IMG/VR virus record: IMGVR_UViG_3300018486_000049
Span: 1-39,903 of that record
Origin: a virus
Lineage: Duplodnaviria; Heunggongvirae; Uroviricota; Caudoviricetes
DNA: 39,903 nt
Reading direction: 5' to 3' (one strand)
In this document: piece after piece, positions 20,526 to 31,717 of the stretch
How the letters are laid out: every line of letters starts with the position of its first letter
Numbering within the stretch: the stretch's first letter is position 1
The notes under the pieces: generated by a model
Seen by the model: the letters and a program-made list of their open reading frames with translations, nothing else
The model's database searches: none
What the model was told of the DNA's origin: nothing
Program-made: the position numbers and the translations under genes

Positions 20526-20795
20526 CTACTGCATCCGTCCGGGTAAATCGCTTTCATTGCGTAAACGCCAAGCTAACTGTTCACGATCCCAAACTATATC
20601 GTCTTTGCTAGCCTTTCTAAAATTTGCTAGCACAGTACTGCTTATAGCGTAATTACCATTCTCATTAGTTTTGATGAACTCGTCCCCAAAGTCATTGATT
20701 AGAAATTCAACAACCTCGGACTGATACAACACACCATTAGAACGAGTGGTATTAACCATCCAGTCAACTATTTTTATCAGAGAATCATTCATCAT
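20526..20795 (-). CDS. Hypothetical small protein (about 89 aa)
   Basis: ORF in the AT-rich region between Q and the cos region; start chosen at MMNDS to limit overlap; no motif recognised. Confidence 0.45.
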   Translation of the reverse strand: MMNDSLIKIVDWMVNTTRSNGVLYQSEVVEFLINDFGDEFIKTNENGNYAISSTVLANFRKASKDDIVWDREQLAWRLRNESDLPGRMQ

Positions 20796-20994
20796 CACTC
20801 TCAGCTTTTGGAACAAATAAAACTAGAGTATCTTCATGAAAAACTCCGCGCTGGTTCTTAGCACCAATAAACCACGTACAAACTGCCATTGTAGCCGATT
20901 GGTAGTGATCAATTACCATGATTGGACCATGTCCTGTTGCATGTTTTACTTTCTGGCCCGGTGTATATTTTGCCACTCTCACGTCTCCTTTCAT
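20785..20994 (-). CDS. DUF2158-like small protein (YodC-like pattern)
   Basis: 69 aa with the G..VK...G.GP.MVI....C.WF pattern I associate with DUF2158. Confidence 0.5.
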   Translation of the reverse strand: MKGDVRVAKYTPGQKVKHATGHGPIMVIDHYQSATMAVCTWFIGAKNQRGVFHEDTLVLFVPKAESDDE

Positions 20995-21061
20995 GTGTAA
21001 GTTATCAATTTCAGAATATATCTACATTAATTGCAAGTAAACATGTTTGCGCGCGCTCGTA

Positions 21062-21074
21062 TCCCCGCCACGCC
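21062..21074. other. Candidate cos (cohesive end) site region
   Basis: Reverse complement GGCGTGGCGGGGA resembles the start of the P2/186 cohesive end as I recall it; lies in the non-coding gap between Q-side and A-side genes. Confidence 0.3.
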
Positions 21075-21453
21075 TGCCCGCTTTATGCAGTGGTTTTCAT
21101 GCACATGCATGACATGAGCAAAAGCCCGCCAGTTCTGGCGGATCTGAGCAAAGACGATCCTCAATCGATCATGCGATTTCATGCAGCATAGTCATGCACT
21201 GTCAAGGAAGTGAAAATCCGTATCTGAATGGCCACTTGAAAAACGGATCATACGGGTTTACAAAGATGAATGTTCGCTGTGAACGGGAAGCGGAAGTTAA
21301 CTTTCAGATAACATAATCCATATGCACGAGAACCTCTAAAATAGAATGGGACACCTAAGCGGGGTACTTACAACGATTCTTTCCATATTCACAGTTAACA
21401 CTCTGTTTGGCGTATTTTTATTCAAATAGCAAACACCAATAAAAGGAGTTTCC

Positions 21454-21789
21454 ATGAACAATATTCCCCCTATACCACAGTTAGGAATTTATGTCTCAAA
21501 AATCGATCCCACCCTACGTATCACTGTAACCGATGTTGATATTGTTGATGGTGAGGATGATTCTCCTGATGATGAATTGTTTTATTTAGTCCACTGGATC
21601 GAGGGGGAAGATGAAAGTGATATGACAGCAATGGGATTTGAGCTAGACCCAGTAGAGTGGCAGGCTTTCGTTGAATCTGAGCAATTAGTGTTTGAGCGTG
21701 ATCCGTACATGGATTCAATCCCCGAAAATTCAAACTTGGCAAAGATTCGGGATTTTCTCATGAAGACTAAACAGAATGATCATTCGTAA
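21454..21789 (+). CDS. Hypothetical strongly acidic protein (111 aa)
   Basis: Good ATG with GGAG upstream; Asp/Glu-rich runs (DGEDDSPDDE, EGEDESD); only plus-strand gene in this region. Confidence 0.55.
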   Translation: MNNIPPIPQLGIYVSKIDPTLRITVTDVDIVDGEDDSPDDELFYLVHWIEGEDESDMTAMGFELDPVEWQAFVESEQLVFERDPYMDSIPENSNLAKIRDFLMKTKQNDHS

Positions 21790-21943
21790 GTGTAAGCATC
21801 CATCAGGAAAATGGTTTTGTAAGTGAATCATCAACTTTTAGAGAGTCTCAGACACTCCCACTTCTGCTTCTGACACAAAGCGGACGATCACTTATCAAAA
21901 TAACCGCCCACCTTACGCCTTATTTCACTCATTGCCCAAACTA

Positions 21944-21973
21944 GCCCCCATCAGAATGAATCCTCCTGGGGGC
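21944..21973. terminator. Candidate bidirectional hairpin terminator
   Basis: GC-rich 7 bp stem GCCCCCA / TGGGGGC with 16 nt loop between convergent genes. Confidence 0.4.
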
Positions 21974-21981
21974 AACATTTC

Positions 21982-22215
21982 TTAATGCAGCCAGCTGTCG
22001 TCCTCCCACACCTTCTGCATAATTTTCATCACTTGTTTTCTTTCTTCATCCAGTTGCAGTCCGGTTAGTTCCACACCGTTAGAGCTACCTTTGCGAATGC
22101 GAATTACCGTTTTGGGATACAGGGGGCGCAGATTGCGGTAAAGCTCGGATTCAAGTGCGTCCAAGGTAGACTGGCTAATCTTCTGCTCTTTATCGATCAT
22201 TATTTCAATGCGCAT
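21982..22215 (-). CDS. DinI-like protein (C-terminal, DinI-like part of a Tum-type antirepressor)
   Basis: MRIEIMIDKEQ...VWEDDSWLH resembles DinI as recalled; SD GAGGTGA before the ATG at 22215; the frame is also open upstream to 22287. Confidence 0.7.
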   Translation of the reverse strand: MRIEIMIDKEQKISQSTLDALESELYRNLRPLYPKTVIRIRKGSSNGVELTGLQLDEERKQVMKIMQKVWEDDSWLH

Positions 22216-22225
22216 AAAAGTCACC

Positions 22226-22414
22226 TCAGCTGATGACATCCATTGAGCGGTTGTATTCGTGGCTTCTGATTTTTGCCATGAGTTCATCAGTCAATTCAGA
22301 AACCCACTGCAGAGCCAGCCCCTTCTCTTCATCACTACACTCACTAGCCGCTACAAGCTTAAGAAAAAAATCAATGCGCTGGAGCTTCAAAGACTCCAAA
22401 AAATAGTCCTGCAT
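22226..22414 (-). CDS. Small protein (62 aa), possible N-terminal part of a split Tum-like antirepressor
   Basis: GGAGG SD before the ATG; overlaps the upstream-open DinI frame out of frame; LexA box in its promoter. Confidence 0.5.
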   Translation of the reverse strand: MQDYFLESLKLQRIDFFLKLVAASECSDEEKGLALQWVSELTDELMAKIRSHEYNRSMDVIS

Positions 22415-22456
22415 CTTTCCTCCTATGACACCAAAACAATACTGTATACATAACCA

Positions 22457-22472
22457 CTGTTTATATTTACAG
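22457..22472. promoter_or_regulatory. LexA (SOS) box overlapping the promoter of the Tum-like module
   Basis: CTGTTTATATTTACAG, a perfect CTGT-N8-ACAG with AT-rich spacer, 43 bp upstream of the ATG at 22414; a half-site-like CTGTATACATAACCAC lies just upstream. Confidence 0.65.
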
Positions 22473-22566
22473 TATATAATAATCTTACTGATGTAAAACG
22501 TTTTTTTACGTTCATCGGCCTGATATGCCTGGTATTATTAAGAGCACGAATTGTTAACCCGCGTAA

Positions 22567-24981
22567 TTAATACAGGTTCCGCCACTTATCATCTTCCTTC
22601 AGACGCTGGTTCCGATAGAAGATACGCAGGCCTGCTCCTGACGGAATACTGCCGCCGCGAAGGAGCAAATCGACTTCTTTCTCGCTGCCATCAAATCCCC
22701 TGGACTTCAGTTCATAGACGAGCTGCTGTCGCTGATGGTCTGTAATTCGCTGTTTGTAGTCTTTACGCCGTTTCGGTTTCACCTGGCGTAACCTTGCAGC
22801 CAGTTCCCGGCGCTCTTTTTTGCTCATACTGTGCAGGTAATCGTGCAACTCCTTGTCATTCATACGGGTAATATCCGTTCTGGAGTCCCCATCAGCTGAT
22901 TTGTCTTTCCCTTGTTGGTTCAAATTTTCAGCAAAGGGACAGTTATTGCCACGAGTCCAAGGGGCGCAAGCGCCCTGGTCGGCTACCGCCTCCTGAACGT
23001 CAACGGCCTTACGAACCATTTTCCACTTCACTGCATGAGTGCAGATCTTGCCCTCTGCAATGGGTGACCAGATGCCATAAATACGAATGCCGTGATCGCC
23101 ATAGGCGGTCGGCTCTTCGTTGATTTCATAAGCGGTTCTGATAAGGTGATATTTACGGGGAACCAGTACGCCGCCCTGCTTCATGATGTAGGTGGCAAAA
23201 CAACCAGCATCAGCAGCAGCCAGGATGGCATCAAGGCGCGGGTCATCCAGTATCGGCGCACCTGCTTTTTTGTCACCCTGTTGCCTTGCCGCCTGACCAG
23301 CCAGCAAGCGAAGTTCACGGTAAGCCTGACGTCCCGGAATACCAAAGAAGCGGAACTGCTGAACACGATGCAGAGACGCCCAGGCATTAACGTATTCGGC
23401 GTTATCACGCAGGGATTTACCCGTTTCCTTGCTGATCTCGCCAGCCAGACCACGCCCGTCAATGTTCTTACTGATGTATTTCGCGATGTAGCTTGTCGGT
23501 GTTCCTTTGCGCGGGTTAATCAGCTCAGACTTAAAGCGTGGCCCCGTGTTGTTGCCCAGCTCCTCGCGGTCTACACGGATGGCAAACTTACGCAGTAATG
23601 CAGTGATGGCGCGGCGGTCTTTTTTACGCATGAAGCACATGAGATGCCAGTGCACAGTACCGTCATGGTGCGGCTCAGCCACCCGCACGCCATACCAGCG
23701 CAACCCGGTTTTGTGCATTGCCTTACGAAATGCAGCAAACATGCCGACCAGATAATCGCTACTTTGTCTTACCGTCGCATTTGTCCAGGTCGGGTTGGGT
23801 CTGCCGTTGTTGAGCGTGGAATGGAAACGTGACGGACAGGTGATAGTGTAGAAAACGGCGCAGTCACCGCGCATTTCCGCGATAAGCTCCAGACCTTTAA
23901 CACAGGCCATCATCTCATTGCGGCGATGCGCAGGGTTGCTGCTGCTGGCGTTTACCACATCCTCCATGTCCAGCGTGTCGCCGTCTTCGTTCACCAGTTC
24001 ATGAGAACGGAAAAACTCCAGCGACTTACGGCGCTGCTCACGTTTATGCATCACGGCTTCATAGCTGACATAGGGAGATGCTTTTTTGCTGACCAGGCAG
24101 ACAGCACGCAACTGCTCTTCCCGCCATTCGCAACGCATCTTCCATAATTTCCGATACCACCAGTCGGCGCACAACATACGCGCCAGCGAACCCGGAATGA
24201 GTTCATAGGGCACGGGTTTACGGCGGTTTCTTTTCCGACGGAGTTGCTCAAACGCAGGTGGGATGACATCCAGACGCAGGGTTTCCGCCGCCACCTTTTC
24301 CCATGTCTTGCGGATTTCTTCTGGCTTAACGTCATCGGTGGCATACAAATCGCCACAAGCTGCATCAAGGCACATGCTCATATGCGCAGCTACCAGGGTG
24401 GACAGGCGTTTCACCTGATCCTGACTCATTTCAGGCAGGATCAGCAGGCCCTCCATCCCTTGATGGCTTGCCATAAAACGGAAAGAAGCAGACAGCTGAC
24501 TGTCACGTACACAATCCAGTCGCTCCAGACATGGCTTAATCGTCTCACGCAAATAGCGGGAATAAGCCTTTGGCCTGCCCAGGCTGCTGAAGTATTCGAT
24601 ACGTTGCATCAGCGGCTTGCTAATATGGGTGGGCTGGGCGCTGACGTCCGCCAGAATGACCATGTCCGGGTTAAAACGCTGCTGTTCATGCGCCAGCTTT
24701 GCCCGGCTAATGAGCTTATCCTGCTCCATTTCGCGCTGGACAGGATCACGAGATTCATTAAAGAAATAACGCTCCCAGACCTGCTCACTCAGTGCATCGC
24801 GGCGCAGCTGTTCCTGCTCATTATCGGCAGCGTACAGAGTGATCAGGTTTGAAAGTGCAGACTCCGGCGCAACTTCCGCCGGGTCCAGATAAGGGTTAAT
24901 GGCCTTTTTCGGGCCGTTCCATGAAAATGCTGCAGCGGCCTCGTTAAAGCCGCTAGAGTTGCTCATATCGTCATGACTCAT
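22567..24981 (-). CDS. A: Replication initiation protein gpA (rolling-circle HUH endonuclease family)
   Basis: 804 aa; HWH (HUH-like) motif followed by YIAKYISK tyrosine motif; P2 A position. Confidence 0.9.
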
Positions 24982-27974: not shown

Positions 27975-28916
27975 ATGTCAACTAATAAAATCACATTTCG
28001 CCATATTGAAGATCATCTGAAAGCCATGGTCATGCAGAATCGAGGAGGGCAAAAAGTCATTGAGAGAATACTCATGGCCTATGGTTTCAAATCACGCCAA
28101 GCATTCTGTAACCACCTTGGTATTTCACAAAGTACAATGGCTAACAGATATGCACGCGATACCTTCCCTGCTGATTGGGTTGTTATATGTTCAATGGAAA
28201 CTGGCGCATCAATCGAATGGTTAGCATTTGGTTTAGATGCTGAAGAAGGAGTGCCAGTTCCTTCGCCAGAACGGCATGCTGAAAAACAGTCTGCAGATGA
28301 ATTTTGCAATGAAGTTCACACCCCCACGATAAAGTTCGATAATGAAAACCACATGGATTTCACTCGAGGGGGTAAAGCAGCAATAGAGCGAATTGTTAAG
28401 GCTTACGGTTACAAAACGCGCCAAGCCTTAGCCGATCACCTTGGCATCTCAAAAAGCACATTAGCTACACGATACATGCGAGACATTTTTCCGGCAGACT
28501 GGATCATCCAATGCTGTTTAGAAACAGGAGTGTCTCTCGAGTGGTTATCTTTTGGTAAGGGGCATTCCAATCAAACAAAGCTAAGTGGGTTGCTTACATT
28601 AGACTGCTATGATCTACGTGACGGCAAACTTACTGATCAAAGAGAATTAATCGTTTCGAGCGAAATTTTACCTCAAAATTTAAAACATCCCTATATAGTT
28701 AATTCCGCAAATGATTCATATATCATTAGCAAAGAGGAGTATCTTAGCGATGGTCTATGGTTAGTATCTATTAACGGAGAATTTACTTTTAGAGACATAT
28801 TTAAACTTCCAAACAATCGCATCCGCGTTGAAAACACAAAATATAGCTTTGAATGCGATAAAGAAGATTTGGAATTTAATAATAAAGTTAAAGGAATAAT
28901 TAGAAAAAGGGTTTAA
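27975..28916 (+). CDS. cI: CI-like immunity repressor with tandemly duplicated N-terminal DNA-binding domain
   Basis: 313 aa; residues about 23-85 and 122-184 are an internal repeat (about 60 percent identical, IERI..AYG.K.RQA...HLGIS.ST.A.RY.RD.FPADW...C.ETG.S.EWL.FG); C-terminal domain SDGLWLVSINGEF...; divergent from Apl/Cox. Confidence 0.8.
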   Translation: MSTNKITFRHIEDHLKAMVMQNRGGQKVIERILMAYGFKSRQAFCNHLGISQSTMANRYARDTFPADWVVICSMETGASIEWLAFGLDAEEGVPVPSPERHAEKQSADEFCNEVHTPTIKFDNENHMDFTRGGKAAIERIVKAYGYKTRQALADHLGISKSTLATRYMRDIFPADWIIQCCLETGVSLEWLSFGKGHSNQTKLSGLLTLDCYDLRDGKLTDQRELIVSSEILPQNLKHPYIVNSANDSYIISKEEYLSDGLWLVSINGEFTFRDIFKLPNNRIRVENTKYSFECDKEDLEFNNKVKGIIRKRV

Positions 28917-28918
28917 CA

Positions 28919-29968
28919 ATGAGCTTTACGAAAACTATTGAATTTGCAAACTATACCTTAAATTTTGGAGAGGACAAAGTTCTCTTAGATGCTTTTGATT
29001 GCATTGTTTTTCCTTCATTTTTCGCACAAAAATACGTTAGAAAATTTAAAGATACAGAATATTTCTTTACTGACACAAAAATTATTACGTTAGATACTAC
29101 AGATTCAGATTTTATTGGTCCTATAGTTCCAACAATTGCATTGTGTGGCCGCATTATAAAAAAGACCATATTTAAACGAGATCAAATATTTCAAGATGGT
29201 CAATTAATTCGAGATCACAGGACGCTAGAAAGTCACCCCAGCTCTATTTTTATTCTTATGCTTAATGAGCACAGATTAATGCTTTGCAAAGAGGTTTCTG
29301 GAGCCCCTACCCTAGAAGAATTTGAAAATACTAGCAAGTATTGCCTTGCACAGCGATATAATTCTTTTGTGGATTACGAAGTAAAAAAAAATAAAAGAAT
29401 TAGAAAGAAAAAATCATACATTGATCGACTGTATAAAAAAGATATTTATCGTAAACTAGGAGCCCCCAAATTACGGGTTACCCCCTTAACAGACCCAAGA
29501 TCATTGAGCAATTTTGTTGAACTCTTTTCTGTTGTTAATAGATTATCAATTGAGTTATTACCAACAAATAGTGAAAATATATCTCTTGATGGCTTCTGGA
29601 GGAAATTTGAACAAGAAAAAGAAGAACTTAATAGTAGTAAAGCTCAATTAGTATACACAAATAAAAATGAAGATGGTTTAAATTCTGATGCCGTCATTCA
29701 AAAAACAACAAGTGCAACCCGAATGGCCAACTCTAAAGTAATTATCAGTGGTAAAGATGAACACGGAGCAAGGCTATCAGGGAATAATGATAGTTTTACT
29801 CTAAAAGCATCAAGGCCACAACTTAGTTCTGATTTGGAAAGAGCTGCTCAAGAGGCGTATTCTGCATTCACAGAATTAAAGGATGAAGGAAATATTATTA
29901 TTCCAGAACGTGAAGATTATACTAAAATTTTTTCCAAGTTAACATCAATAATTTCTAGGTGGCTATAG
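28919..29968 (+). CDS. Cargo protein 1 of repressor-linked cassette, function unknown (349 aa, soluble)
   Basis: ATG 2 nt after the repressor stop; AT-rich; basic patch KKNKRIRKKKSYIDRLYKKDIYRK; no catalytic motif recognised. Confidence 0.7.
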   Translation: MSFTKTIEFANYTLNFGEDKVLLDAFDCIVFPSFFAQKYVRKFKDTEYFFTDTKIITLDTTDSDFIGPIVPTIALCGRIIKKTIFKRDQIFQDGQLIRDHRTLESHPSSIFILMLNEHRLMLCKEVSGAPTLEEFENTSKYCLAQRYNSFVDYEVKKNKRIRKKKSYIDRLYKKDIYRKLGAPKLRVTPLTDPRSLSNFVELFSVVNRLSIELLPTNSENISLDGFWRKFEQEKEELNSSKAQLVYTNKNEDGLNSDAVIQKTTSATRMANSKVIISGKDEHGARLSGNNDSFTLKASRPQLSSDLERAAQEAYSAFTELKDEGNIIIPEREDYTKIFSKLTSIISRWL

Positions 29969-29969
29969 T

Positions 29970-30575
29970 ATGAAATATACATTCAACCCAGAAGATCTGA
30001 CCAAAGAGCGATCTTTGCATGATGTTTACAAATTAACTAAAAAAATAAAGGTCAATTCATTTGACTTTTATTTCACATTATTGTTAGTGATATTATTATC
30101 TATTAATGCTTTTTGTCTATCTTCATCACCAGAGTTAATTTCATCTATTAGACAATGGACACCTTTAGTATTCGGATTCACTACAACAACATTAGGTTTT
30201 TTAATTACTGGATTTACAATATTTGCAACCATAAATAAACCTGAACTTTTCCTTTCATTAATGGAGTATAAGCATCCATTATACGGGATAAGTTACTTAA
30301 AATATGTTTATGGTGTATTTATGAGAGTATTTATATATTTCATATTTTGGTCTGTTATCTATCTTTTAGTCCTTCTTTTCGGGCAAGAAAATGGATTGGC
30401 TACAAAATTACTCAGAGCCTTAATGTTTTCTCATTGCACTAAAGTTGTTGGAGTTCAAATACTATATATACTCGTAGGAAGCAGTGCAGTGTTCCTTGTA
30501 TTAACTTTAAAAACTTTCCTGTTCAATATTTATGCTATGTTAATGCAATCTCTACGCTGGGAAGTAGAAAGATAA
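29970..30575 (+). CDS. Cargo protein 2, small multi-pass membrane protein (201 aa)
   Basis: ATG 1 nt after gene 1 stop with AGGTGG SD; about four hydrophobic helices; AT-rich. Confidence 0.7.
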   Translation: MKYTFNPEDLTKERSLHDVYKLTKKIKVNSFDFYFTLLLVILLSINAFCLSSSPELISSIRQWTPLVFGFTTTTLGFLITGFTIFATINKPELFLSLMEYKHPLYGISYLKYVYGVFMRVFIYFIFWSVIYLLVLLFGQENGLATKLLRALMFSHCTKVVGVQILYILVGSSAVFLVLTLKTFLFNIYAMLMQSLRWEVER

Positions 30576-30664: not shown

Positions 30665-31717
30665 ATGGCAGTACGAAAACTCACCACAGGAAAATGGCTA
30701 TGCGAATGTTACCCCGCGGGACGTAGTGGACGTCGTGTGCGTAAACAATTCGCCACCAAAGGTGAAGCTCTGGCTTTTGAGCGTCACACGATGGAAGAAA
30801 CCGAAGCAAAGCCCTGGCTGGGTGAATCAGTGGATCGTCGAACACTGAAAGACGTGGTTGAGCTATGGTTCAAACTACATGGTAAATCTCTGACAGCTGG
30901 GCAGCATGTCTATGACAAATTGCTGTTGATAGTTGACGCTCTGGGCAATCCCCTTGCAACCGATCTCACCTCTAAAATGTTTGCCCACTATCGAGATAAA
31001 CGCCTGACAGGAGAGATCTACTTCAGCGAAAAATGGAAGAAAGGAGCAAGCCCGGTCACCATTAACCTGGAGCAAAGCTATCTTAGTAGTGTTTTTAGCG
31101 AACTATCCCGCCTGGGCGAATGGTCGTATCCGAACCCACTGGAGAACATGCGAAAATTCACCATCGCAGAAAAAGAGATGGCATGGCTTACCCATGAGCA
31201 GATTGTTGAATTACTGGCTGATTGCAAACGTCAGGACCCAATTCTGGCACTGGTAGTTAAGATATGCTTAAGCACAGGCGCACGCTGGCGAGAAGCCGTA
31301 AATCTTACTCGTTCACAGGTGACCAAATACCGAATTACCTTTGTAAGAACGAAGGGGAAGAAAAACAGAAGCATCCCTATCAGTAAAGAGCTTTACGAAG
31401 AGATCATGGCGCTTGATGGGTTCAATTTCTTCACAGACTGCTATTTTCAATTTTTATCCGTGATGGAAAAAACGTCTATCGTGCTCCCTCGCGGTCAACT
31501 CACACACGTTCTGCGCCATACGTTTGCAGCGCACTTCATGATGTCGGGTGGAAACATCTTGGCCTTACAAAAAATTCTCGGACATCACGATATAAAAATG
31601 ACGATGCGTTACGCACATCTGGCACCGGATCATCTGGAAACGGCGCTCCGTTTCAATCCTCTGGCAACGCTGCCAAGTGGCGACAAAGTGGCGGCAGCGG
31701 TTGGCATTACCCCGTAA
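30665..31717 (+). CDS. int: Tyrosine integrase (P2/186 Int family)
   Basis: 350 aa with C-terminal catalytic signature LRHTFAAH...GHHDIKMTMRYAHL. Confidence 0.9.
   Translation: MAVRKLTTGKWLCECYPAGRSGRRVRKQFATKGEALAFERHTMEETEAKPWLGESVDRRTLKDVVELWFKLHGKSLTAGQHVYDKLLLIVDALGNPLATDLTSKMFAHYRDKRLTGEIYFSEKWKKGASPVTINLEQSYLSSVFSELSRLGEWSYPNPLENMRKFTIAEKEMAWLTHEQIVELLADCKRQDPILALVVKICLSTGARWREAVNLTRSQVTKYRITFVRTKGKKNRSIPISKELYEEIMALDGFNFFTDCYFQFLSVMEKTSIVLPRGQLTHVLRHTFAAHFMMSGGNILALQKILGHHDIKMTMRYAHLAPDHLETALRFNPLATLPSGDKVAAAVGITP

What the first reader, a model, noticed from the sequence alone, without database searches (positions are those of the whole stretch)
21982..22472. SOS-controlled Tum-like antirepressor module that appears split by a frameshift in an A5 run
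A perfect LexA box (CTGTTTATATTTACAG, 22457-22472) overlaps a promoter driving a 62 aa ORF followed by a DinI-like ORF. The DinI frame is open upstream and overlaps the last 20 codons of the small ORF out of frame. Removing one A from the A5 run (plus-strand T5 at 22270-22274) would fuse them into one protein of about 140 aa, the size and architecture (N-terminal antirepressor part, DinI-like C-terminus) I recall for 186 Tum. The CI-like repressor shows no obvious LexA-type autocleavage motif, so induction via an antirepressor is coherent. The split could be a sequencing error, a pseudogene (non-inducible prophage) or a real two-protein variant.
Basis: partly seen in the sequence, partly recalled or inferred. 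Interest (0 to 1): 0.6.

Follow-up and report, generated by a model that had tools for sequence, protein, structure and literature searches.

The report
Naturally split Tum antirepressor operon
This is the ordinary, already described DNA-damage switch of a Fels-2/186-like prophage: a LexA-repressed promoter drives a small antirepressor gene (tumA) and a separate DinI-like gene (tumB), and the apparent frameshift between them is the normal working arrangement, not an error or a dead gene.

Summary
The functional idea also holds. This is an SOS-controlled, Tum-type antirepressor module next to a 186-type CI that has no autocleavage domain.

The "split by a frameshift" reading is wrong. The two-gene layout is the natural state:
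- It is identical in 160/160 related viral contigs.
- It is present in 1,125 of 5,426 complete E. coli genomes, and PGAP called two genes in all 24 full-length sampled rows.
- It is annotated as tumA/tumB in phage PsP3 and as two genes in Fels-2, and the literature describes it.

Downstream of the A-run, substitutions are mostly synonymous in ORF1's own frame (270:122). They are almost all non-synonymous in the DinI frame (21:393), which carries stop codons in some relatives. Close relatives have A4 instead of A5. The tumA–tumB spacing varies from 8 to 12 nt, so all three frame offsets occur. That rules out conserved recoding.

The E. coli HS prophage DuoHS encodes 100% identical TumA and TumB. 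A published deletion of exactly the 62-aa ORF, leaving the DinI gene intact, abolishes mitomycin C induction.

Verdict: already known, low interest.

Side observation: this invariant TumA travels with very diverse CI repressors.

The parts
22492..22497 (-). -35 hexamer TTTACA of the p95-like SOS promoter (predicted)
   Evidence: Read. It lies 17 nt upstream of the TACTGT -10, parallel to the annotated 186 p95 (TTCACA-18-TACTGT). The generic scan does not call it.
22455..22474 (-). LexA box, 20-mer TACTGTAAATATAAACAGTG (core CTGT-N8-ACAG at 22457-22472). Its first six bases (22469-22474) are the predicted -10.
   Evidence: 17/20 match to the consensus, scored on the identical Fels-2 20-mer. Conserved in 76/80 close loci and in every divergent clade.
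22440..22459 (-). Degenerate second LexA-like site, CAGTGGTTATGTATACAGTA (15/20 by my count; left half-site GTG instead of CTG)
   Evidence: One search scored the Fels-2 equivalent at 15/20. In the MAFFT alignment it aligns with the single LexA box of 186 and PsP3. Function not tested.
22419..22424 (-). Ribosome-binding site AGGAGG of tumA
   Evidence: Sequence; it ends 4 nt before the ATG at 22414.
22226..22414 (-). tumA: 62-aa stand-alone antirepressor (ORF1), homologous to the N-terminal part of 186 Tum
   Evidence: phrog_698; profile against Tum, E=3.3e-10; two-helix hairpin, pLDDT 87. 100% identical to E. coli HS ECHS_RS04495, the gene deleted as 'tum' in PMC12055606.
22270..22274 (-). 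A5 run (T5 on the + strand) = Ala47(GCA)-Lys48(AAA)-Ile49(ATC). An ordinary coding sequence, not a frameshift site.
   Evidence: A5 in 80/80 loci. In relatives Ala47 is GCG or GCT, giving A4 with the same protein. Frame test.
22221..22227 (-). Ribosome-binding site GAGGTGA of tumB, overlapping the tumA stop codon TGA (22226-22228)
   Evidence: junction conserved. The hairpin around it is not significant (z=-0.40).
21982..22215 (-). tumB: 77-aa DinI-like protein (true start MRIEIM, not the 101-aa mechanical ORF)
   Evidence: Pfam DinI 6.6e-23. phrog_189 positions 71-148 of 151. Same length as PsP3 TumB and Fels-2 STM2726.1. 100% identical to E. coli HS ECHS_RS04500.
21944..21973 (-). Possible weak terminator hairpin GCCCCCA...TGGGGGC after tumB
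   Evidence: MFE -23.7 kcal/mol for the 71-nt stretch, z=-1.28, poor U-tract. Weak evidence only.
22567..24981 (-). Context: gpA replication endonuclease immediately upstream of the module
   Evidence: Pfam Phage_GPA 7.7e-127. Same gene order as in 186, PsP3, Fels-2 and DuoHS.
27975..28916 (+). Context: presumed target, a 186-type CI repressor (313 aa) with tandem HTH domains plus the CI C-terminal domain and no S24 domain

Best explanation
The locus is the SOS-induction operon of a Fels-2/186-like (Peduoviridae) prophage in its natural two-cistron form, tumA-tumB.

In a lysogen, host LexA binds the box that overlaps the -10 and start site of a p95-like promoter and keeps the operon off. This step is inferred from sequence and from the 186 precedent. 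DNA damage activates RecA, LexA cleaves itself, and the operon is transcribed.

TumA is a 62-aa two-helix protein homologous to the N-terminal half of 186 Tum. It is the antirepressor. It inactivates the non-cleavable 186-type CI, which derepresses the early lytic promoter and induces the prophage. The requirement of this exact protein for mitomycin C induction has been shown genetically in E. coli HS. Direct CI binding is inferred from 186 Tum.

TumB is a separately translated 77-aa DinI-like protein with its own ribosome-binding site, which overlaps the tumA stop codon. By analogy with DinI and with the short forms of 186 Tum, it probably modulates RecA and the SOS response. This is inferred.

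The A5 run is simply the codons Ala-Lys-Ile. Nothing is broken.
For: 1. **Homology.** The ORF1-family profile hits 186 Tum residues ~6-48 (E=3.3e-10 against 688 decoys). ORF2 is DinI. The hypothetical fusion is collinear with Tum.
2. **Same genomic slot and promoter design** as 186 p95. The LexA box is conserved in all clades.
3. **The split is natural.**
   - 80/80 and 80/80 loci carry the intact 62-aa ORF.
   - 1,125 of 5,426 complete E. coli genomes carry the module, BL21 among them. PGAP called two genes in all 24 full-length rows of the 25 sampled.
   - PsP3 is annotated tumA ('UV induction of prophage') plus tumB. Fels-2 carries two CDS.
   - PMC3121763 states that Fels-2 and PSP3 have tum split in two and that the upstream PSP3 gene carries the antirepressor activity.
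4. **Selection.** In the tail after the A-run, differences are 270 synonymous to 122 non-synonymous in frame 0. In the +1 frame they are 21:393, and that frame has stop codons in some relatives.
5. **A stand-alone family.** 67 cluster representatives are nearly all 55-75 aa and none is fused to DinI. Three divergent clades carry tumA after gpA with a LexA box and no DinI gene at all.
6. **Experiment on identical proteins.** DuoHS TumA is 62/62 and TumB 77/77 identical to the window's. Primers NHR24 and NHR28 show that the published delta-tum fuses the ATG of the 62-aa ORF to its own TGA and leaves the DinI gene intact. Both delta-tum and lexA(Ind-) abolish mitomycin C-induced lysis and virion foci.
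7. **CI.** It is of the 186 type with no S24 domain.
Against: - No LexA binding, transcript or protein data exist for this particular strain.
- The generic promoter scan finds nothing.
- This prophage's CI is an unusual tandem-HTH form. It is only 48% identical to DuoHS CI and 36% to Fels-2 CI. That this TumA inactivates this CI is therefore inferred, not shown.
- PsP3 TumA itself is too divergent to be detected by the ORF1-family profile (E=2.7).
- Direct TumA-CI binding has been published only for full-length 186 Tum. The PSP3 result is a cited personal communication.
Confidence: 0.9

Rival explanations
1. Frameshift artefact or pseudogene. An ancestral fused tum gene of ~143 aa was broken by a +1A insertion or a sequencing error in the A-run, leaving a non-inducible prophage.
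For: Deleting one A gives a 143-aa ORF collinear with the 146-aa 186 Tum. The DinI frame is open for 25 codons upstream. Homopolymer indels do occur: one cluster, P0126, carries a shifted tail after ...ELMAK.
Against: - A5 is present in 80/80 independent close assemblies and in the DuoHS module of E. coli HS.
- The module occurs in 1,125 complete E. coli genomes. PGAP called two genes in all 24 full-length sampled rows.
- Frame 0 is under purifying selection after the run and the +1 frame is not.
- The frame-0 tail motif K-[IVL]-[RD]-x-[HY]-[ED] is shared with distant stand-alone homologues that have no DinI gene.
- None of 120 + 67 homologue clusters is fused.
- DuoHS, with identical sequence, is inducible and makes infectious virions.
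Confidence: 0.02
2. Programmed recoding. A fraction of ribosomes (+1 slip of tRNA-Lys on A-AAA-A) or of RNA polymerase (slippage on A5) produces a minor Tum-like TumA-TumB fusion alongside the two separate proteins.
For: - tRNA-Lys could re-pair perfectly after a +1 slip on GCA-AAA-ATC, and the product would be collinear with 186 Tum.
- The P0141 clade also has an A5 run and an upstream-open DinI frame of 23 codons, at offset +2.
- PsP3 has an in-frame TAG only two codons before the tumB ATG.
Against: - No feature is conserved. In relatives with ~87-90% identical TumA the run is A4 (GCG/GCT-AAA-AT).
- In those relatives the intercistronic gap is 8-12 nt, so the offset is 0, +1 or +2.
- The DinI frame is open for only 2-25 codons upstream.
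- The +1 frame contains stop codons in some relatives and shows no synonymous bias.
- A5 is short for transcriptional slippage (general knowledge).
- An open stretch of about 25 codons is not unusual by chance; my own estimate is roughly 0.3.
Confidence: 0.03
3. Same operon, different target. In this prophage TumA does not act on the resident tandem-HTH CI. Either it acts on another conserved factor, or the module mainly serves to induce other co-resident prophages in trans.
For: TumA is 98-100% identical across prophages whose CIs are 152-318 aa long and only 41-93% identical to the window or Fels-2 CI. Their C-terminal domains have a median pairwise identity of 27%.
Against: - The second half of the CI HTH domain is strongly conserved among all these partners (median 71% for the domain; >=90% consensus A.R..RD.FPA.W.IQCALETG.SL.WL.TG.G). 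That offers a common docking surface.
- 186 Tum is annotated as inhibiting CI DNA binding and is reported to bind its repressor and block operator binding (PMC3121763).
- Delta-tum in DuoHS blocks induction of its own prophage.
Confidence: 0.05

Closest known systems
tum of the E. coli HS prophage DuoHS (ECHS_RS04495 + ECHS_RS04500; PMC12055606)
   Same: TumA is 62/62 and TumB 77/77 identical, with the same A5 run, LexA box and junction. Gene order is the same: gpA-tumA-tumB. Deleting the 62-aa gene alone, or making lexA(Ind-), abolishes mitomycin C induction.
   Different: DuoHS has a single-HTH CI of 189 aa, 48% identical to the window's 313-aa tandem-HTH CI. The cargo genes downstream of tumB also differ.
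Fels-2 STM2728 / STM2726.1 (Salmonella LT2)
   Same: The module DNA is 96.6% identical. It has two CDS of 62 and 77 aa at the same +1 offset with a 10-nt gap. Fels-2 is described as regulated like 186 by an antirepressor, with tum split in two (PMC3121763, citing Bunny et al. 2002).
   Different: Fels-2 carries an orf97-like 243-aa gene after the DinI gene; the window does not. Fels-2 CI is 210 aa and 36% identical to the window's.
PsP3 tumA / tumB
   Same: The same concept, already named: tumA is annotated 'similar to 5' end 186 tum; UV induction of prophage', and tumB 'similar to dinI and 3' end of 186 tum'. It has a LexA box matching 19/20 and lies downstream of gpA. By inspection of the two sequences, TumB is very similar to the window's TumB.
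   Different: PsP3 TumA (60 aa) is highly divergent and not significantly matched by the ORF1-family profile (E=2.7). Its two genes are in the same frame, separated by a TAG and one codon, rather than at +1.
Coliphage 186 Tum (146 aa) and the p95 SOS operon
   Same: - The promoter and LexA design match.
- It sits after gene A.
- The N-terminal region is homologous to TumA (E=3.3e-10) and the C-terminal half is DinI-like.
- The CI is non-cleavable, and the window CI matches PDB 2FJR.

   Different: In 186 the two parts are one polypeptide, with internal starts that yield DinI-like short forms. orf97 follows. The N-terminal parts share only about 20% identity, and BLASTP finds nothing with ORF1 alone.
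Gifsy-1/2/3 and Fels-1 LexA-controlled antirepressors (GfoA, GftA, FsoA) and N15 AntC
   Same: They work the same way. A small LexA-repressed antirepressor inactivates a non-cleavable repressor. Gifsy operons also contain a dinI homologue as a separate gene (PMC3121763).
   Different: The proteins and repressors are unrelated, and the gene order is reversed, with dinI first. I tested no sequence relationship to these proteins.

Membership tests
Tum / TumA antirepressor of 186-like (Peduoviridae) phages | Sequence homology to the N-terminal (non-DinI) part of 186 Tum | tested here: met
   A profile of 29 family members (window ORF1 plus 28 divergent homologues) hits 186 Tum residues ~6-48 at E=3.3e-10 (35 bits). 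The next best of 688 decoy ORFs scores E=0.53. Pairwise BLASTP alone finds nothing.
Tum / TumA antirepressor of 186-like (Peduoviridae) phages | First gene of an operon immediately downstream of replication gene A | tested here: met
   gpA lies at 22567-24981(-) and tumA at 22226-22414(-). The order is the same in 186, PsP3, Fels-2, DuoHS and seven divergent loci.
Tum / TumA antirepressor of 186-like (Peduoviridae) phages | LexA operator overlapping the promoter (SOS control) | tested here: met
   Met at the sequence level only. The box matches 17/20 and overlaps the predicted -10, and it is conserved across clades. LexA binding cannot be tested here. LexA dependence has been shown for the DuoHS module, whose LexA box and both proteins are identical to the window's.
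Tum / TumA antirepressor of 186-like (Peduoviridae) phages | Partner is a 186-type CI repressor that lacks RecA-stimulated autocleavage | tested here: met
   Phage_CI_repr and Phage_CI_C domains, no Peptidase_S24. Matches the 186 CI structure 2FJR at 1.8e-28.
Tum / TumA antirepressor of 186-like (Peduoviridae) phages | Required for SOS induction; binds CI and blocks operator binding | not testable with these tools
   Genetic requirement is published for the 100% identical protein in E. coli HS. CI binding is known only for 186 Tum.
186 Tum proper (single fused polypeptide) | Antirepressor and DinI-like parts in one ~146-aa reading frame | tested here: not met
   A stop codon lies at 22226-22228 and tumB is at +1 with its own ribosome-binding site. 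The split is conserved and under selection. The locus is therefore a TumA/TumB-type variant, not a fused Tum.
DinI family (PF06183) | Full-length match to the DinI domain above the curated threshold | tested here: met
   Pfam DinI scores 81.3 bits against a cutoff of 24.2, covering profile positions 1-63 of 63. The NCBIfam chromosomal DinI equivalog scores only 42.7 bits against a cutoff of 111. It is therefore a DinI-like paralogue, not host DinI itself.
DinI family (PF06183) | Binds RecA filaments and modulates SOS | not testable with these tools
   Inferred from family membership and from the 186 annotation 'modulates SOS induction'.

The most novel reading that the evidence does not exclude
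The essentially invariant 62-aa TumA is a broad-spectrum antirepressor. It would recognise the conserved second half of the CI HTH domain (A.R..RD.FPA.W.IQCALETG.SL.WL.TG.G), not any immunity-specific surface.

One SOS-induced TumA could then inactivate many heteroimmune Fels-2-like CIs, including tandem-HTH forms like this window's. It would also co-induce heteroimmune P2-like prophages in trans.

Immunity specificity and induction specificity would be uncoupled in this phage group.
Probability: 0.3. Interest if true: 0.45.

Novelty: already known. Interest (0 to 1): 0.12.

Why it matters
Scientifically it adds little. The split tumA/tumB organisation, its LexA control and the requirement of the small gene for induction are already published for PsP3, Fels-2 and DuoHS.

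The practical value is in annotation. This 62-aa protein is present in about a fifth of complete E. coli genomes, including BL21. It has no Pfam, NCBIfam or PADLOC family, sits in a PHROG of 'unknown function', and is labelled 'hypothetical protein' or, oddly, 'levan regulatory protein'. A prophage carrying it should be predicted to be SOS-inducible and should not be flagged as defective.

The side observation, one invariant TumA paired with many different CIs, could matter for understanding cross-induction in polylysogens if it holds up.

Tried and rejected
- BLASTP of ORF1 alone against 186 Tum gave no alignment. Only a family profile shows the homology.
- The generic sigma-70 scan found no promoter. 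I defined the promoter by analogy with the annotated 186 p95.
- Alignment-driven locus searches in genome contigs failed twice for lack of a conserved 7-10-column block. I used look-ups of individual divergent members instead.
- Bunny et al. 2002 (PMC151935) is not held. Its content is cited only second-hand through PMC3121763.
- PMC3448106 on P2-like regulatory genes does not mention tum.
- A profile search of PDB sequences with the TumA family gave no hit. The AlphaFold model is a simple two-helix hairpin, and Foldseek against PDB gave only generic hairpins with E>=0.4. This says nothing about mechanism.
- The stem-loop over the tumA stop and tumB ribosome-binding site, which the scan called terminator-like, is no more stable than shuffled sequence (z=-0.40). 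I rejected it as evidence for attenuation or coupling.
- The hairpin after tumB is weak (z=-1.28).
- Rfam and tRNA scans of the window found nothing.
- I considered programmed +1 frameshifting or slippage because two clades have an A5 run within an overlap. I rejected it because the run, the offset and the open frame are all unconserved.

Full report
**1. What is in the sequence**

All features lie on the minus strand, immediately downstream of an 804-aa gpA replication endonuclease (22567-24981; Pfam Phage_GPA 7.7e-127). In order they are:
- a TTTACA -35 hexamer (22492-22497);
- a 17-nt spacer;
- TACTGT (22469-22474), which is both a -10-like hexamer and the start of the 20-mer LexA box TACTGTAAATATAAACAGTG (22455-22474; core CTGT-N8-ACAG at 22457-22472);
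- an AGGAGG ribosome-binding site;
- a 62-aa ORF (22226-22414);
- its TGA stop, which overlaps a GAGGTGA ribosome-binding site;
- ten bases after the stop, a 77-aa ORF starting MRIEIM (21982-22215).

The 77-aa ORF is a full-length DinI domain (6.6e-23). The plus-strand T5 run lies at 22270-22274. Deleting one base gives a 143-aa ORF. The DinI frame is open for 25 codons upstream of its ATG and overlaps 21 codons of ORF1 at +1.

**2. Is the LexA box more than chance?**

Taken alone it is not. One CTGT-N8-ACAG in 40 kb is found where 0.42 are expected, and 34 of 100 shuffles have at least one. Context changes that.

The arrangement reproduces the annotated p95 promoter of coliphage 186: TTCACA-18-TACTGT, with the LexA site starting at the -10. 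A box matching the consensus at 16-19 of 20 positions, with both CTG and CAG half-sites intact, lies 35-61 nt upstream of the start codon of every homologue I examined. These include clades whose protein is only ~35-48% identical. Among close relatives the box is present in 76 of 80 loci.

The generic sigma-70 scan reports nothing here, because TACTGT matches TATAAT at only 3 of 6 positions. A degenerate second site (22440-22459; 15/20 by my count, as one search scored the Fels-2 equivalent) is the one that aligns with the single LexA box of 186 and PsP3. I did not pursue it.

**3. What the two ORFs are**

ORF1 alone gives no BLASTP alignment with 186 Tum. It has no family in Pfam, NCBIfam or PADLOC and falls in PHROG 698, 'unknown function'.

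An exhaustive search of 1.84 billion cluster representatives found 67 relatives. Nearly all are 55-75 aa, and the few longer ones are upstream or downstream read-throughs. None is fused to DinI. The family has a conserved core, M-x-D-[FL]-[FL]-x-E-...-L-Q-R-I-...-C-...-[DE]-K-x-L-A-x-x-W-x-x-E-L-...-L. The core ends near residue 48, which is exactly where the A-run sits, and a variable tail follows.

A profile of 29 members (window ORF1 plus 28 divergent homologues) hits residues ~6-48 of 186 Tum at E=3.3e-10. The best of 688 decoy ORFs scores E=0.53. ORF1 is therefore a true homologue of the N-terminal, non-DinI part of Tum. ORF2 corresponds to Tum's DinI-like C-terminal half: it matches positions 71-148 of the 151-position PHROG 189, and the hypothetical fusion aligns collinearly with Tum.

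AlphaFold predicts TumA as a two-helix hairpin (helices 2-23 and 28-61, pLDDT 87), with the conserved Cys26 in the turn. Structure searches add nothing.

**4. Is the split an error, a pseudogene, a recoding site or the natural state?**

Five lines of evidence agree that it is the natural state.

- *Ubiquity.* The 80 closest viral contigs all have A5, the same stop and the same +1 DinI start. The module occurs in 1,125 of 5,426 complete E. coli genomes, including BL21 at 99.6% identity. PGAP called two genes in all 24 full-length rows of the 25 sampled. Fels-2 carries two CDS, and PsP3 carries genes actually named tumA ('similar to 5' end 186 tum; UV induction of prophage') and tumB.
- *Selection.* Across 71 unique DNA sequences, codon differences in the 14-codon tail after the A-run are 270 synonymous to 122 non-synonymous in ORF1's frame. 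In the DinI frame they are 21:393, and that frame contains stop codons in some relatives.
- *No conserved recoding signal.* In relatives with ~87-90% identical TumA and the same tail, Ala47 is GCG or GCT, so the run is A4. The intercistronic gap is 8-12 nt, so tumB sits at offset 0, +1 or +2. The DinI frame is open for only 2-25 codons upstream. PsP3 has offset 0 and the P0141 clade has +2.
- *Independence of the two genes.* Three divergent P2-like clades carry the LexA-boxed tumA after gpA with no DinI gene at all; the next gene is the convergent ogr/delta. A Pantoea prophage has an intact tumA and a frameshifted DinI remnant.
[quoted passage not shown] In the Phollow study (PMC12055606), the E. 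coli HS prophage DuoHS is induced by mitomycin C, and both delta-tum and lexA(Ind-) abolish lysis and virion formation. The supplementary primers NHR24 and NHR28 read ...ATAGGAGGAAAG-ATG-TGA-GGTGACTTTTATGCGCATTG. That is the start codon of the small ORF fused to its own stop, with the DinI gene left intact. These primers map to ECHS_RS04495 in E. coli HS and to 22412-22434 and 22206-22228 in the window. DuoHS TumA and TumB are 62/62 and 77/77 identical to the window's, with the same A5 run.

The pseudogene and sequencing-error reading is therefore refuted. Programmed frameshifting is very unlikely.

**5. How it most likely works**

Shown, by sequence, comparison, or published genetics on identical proteins:
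- The operon has a LexA box over its promoter.
- TumA alone is needed for SOS induction of a Fels-2-like prophage.
- The resident repressor is a 186-type CI with no S24 autocleavage domain.

Inferred from the 186 precedent (annotation; PMC3121763):
- LexA occupies the box in the lysogen.
- After DNA damage, TumA is made and binds CI, which prevents operator binding and derepresses the early lytic promoter.
- TumB acts on RecA filaments, as DinI does, to tune the SOS signal.

tumB has its own ribosome-binding site overlapping the tumA stop. The small hairpin there is not significant, so I make no claim about translational coupling.

**6. Comparison with what is known, and novelty**

The locus is a member of the TumA/TumB (split Tum) type already described for PsP3, Fels-2 and DuoHS. 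It works like 186 Tum but is not a fused Tum, because that defining feature was tested and not met. It is mechanistically analogous to the Gifsy and Fels-1 antirepressor operons, which also carry a separate dinI gene, in the reverse order. Novelty: already known. The remaining value is in annotation, since the protein is unnamed or misnamed in the databases.

**7. Side observation with some potential**

The window's CI is 313 aa, with two tandem CI-type HTH domains (residues ~22-86 and ~132-196) followed by the CI C-terminal domain. It is only 36% identical to Fels-2 CI and 48% to DuoHS CI, although TumA is 98-100% identical in all three.

Among 80 contigs with this same TumA, 69 include a CI gene. 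There are 42 distinct CI sequences, 152-318 aa long, with single or tandem HTH domains. Their HTH domains are 71% identical in the median pair, with a near-invariant second half. Their C-terminal domains are only 27% identical.

If TumA binds CI, it probably contacts that conserved patch, and it could act across immunity types. This is an inference only. I give it a probability of about 0.3.

Noticed in passing
window 27975-28916 (+): The CI repressor is 313 aa with two tandem CI-type HTH domains (residues ~22-86 and ~132-196; 57% and ~60% identical to the single Fels-2 HTH) followed by one CI C-terminal domain. 186 CI is 192 aa, Fels-2 CI 210 aa and DuoHS CI 189 aa. About eight of 69 related contigs carry similar 308-318-aa tandem forms.
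   Followed up: partly
window 22226-22414 versus 27975-28916; loci L177-L256: TumA is 98-100% identical across prophages whose CIs are very different: 42 distinct sequences, with a median pairwise identity of 27% in the C-terminal domain. Only the second half of the HTH domain is conserved (>=90% consensus A.R..RD.FPA.W.IQCALETG.SL.WL.TG.G). This suggests a common docking site and possible cross-induction of heteroimmune prophages.
   Followed up: partly
window 28919-29968 (+) and 29970-30575 (+): Two back-to-back ORFs (349 and 201 aa) lie between cI and the integrase (30665-31717). Neither has a hit in Pfam, PHROGs, NCBIfam or PADLOC. In DuoHS and Fels-2 this position holds nothing or only a tiny ORF. 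They are candidate cargo or defence genes at the cI-int junction.
   Followed up: no
window 20526-21980: The slot after tumB holds orf97 in 186 and an orf97-sized gene in Fels-2. Here it holds different cargo: a 111-aa ORF on the opposite strand (21454-21789, phrog_17127, unknown function) and a DUF6953 protein (20526-20816, minus strand), just before the portal and terminase genes. Homology to Fels-2 stops right after the tumB stop codon.
   Followed up: no
loci L084, L086/L087, L090/L091: Divergent P2-like prophages carry a LexA-boxed tumA homologue directly after gpA with no DinI gene at all. Several of these distant homologues end in a glycine-rich tail...KNPQxGGxxxGGxxLQ, whose role is unknown.
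   Followed up: partly
locus L092 (Pantoea, CP001875) 2190-2430: A tumA 74% identical to the window's is intact. The DinI-like gene behind it is broken into two frames, a pseudogene remnant, so tumB can be lost while tumA is kept.
   Followed up: partly
protein cluster P0126: One homologue cluster reads ...ELMAKNQNPRIQPLNGCHQLR, a shift into the third frame right at the A-run. Indels at this homopolymer do therefore occur sporadically, by mutation or assembly error, but they are rare: one cluster among about 190.
   Followed up: no
window 22226-22414 (annotation in public records): Homologues of TumA are annotated 'hypothetical protein', or in some Klebsiella phage and UniRef records 'levan regulatory (domain) protein'. 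Some gene callers extend them to 84-109 aa through the promoter and LexA box. The protein has no Pfam, NCBIfam or PADLOC model, despite the published function.
   Followed up: partly
window 22440-22459 (-): A degenerate second LexA-like site (CAGTGGTTATGTATACAGTA) abuts the perfect box. It is the one positionally homologous to the single LexA box of 186 and PsP3, which suggests that the perfect box in the Fels-2 clade is an added or shifted operator.
   Followed up: no
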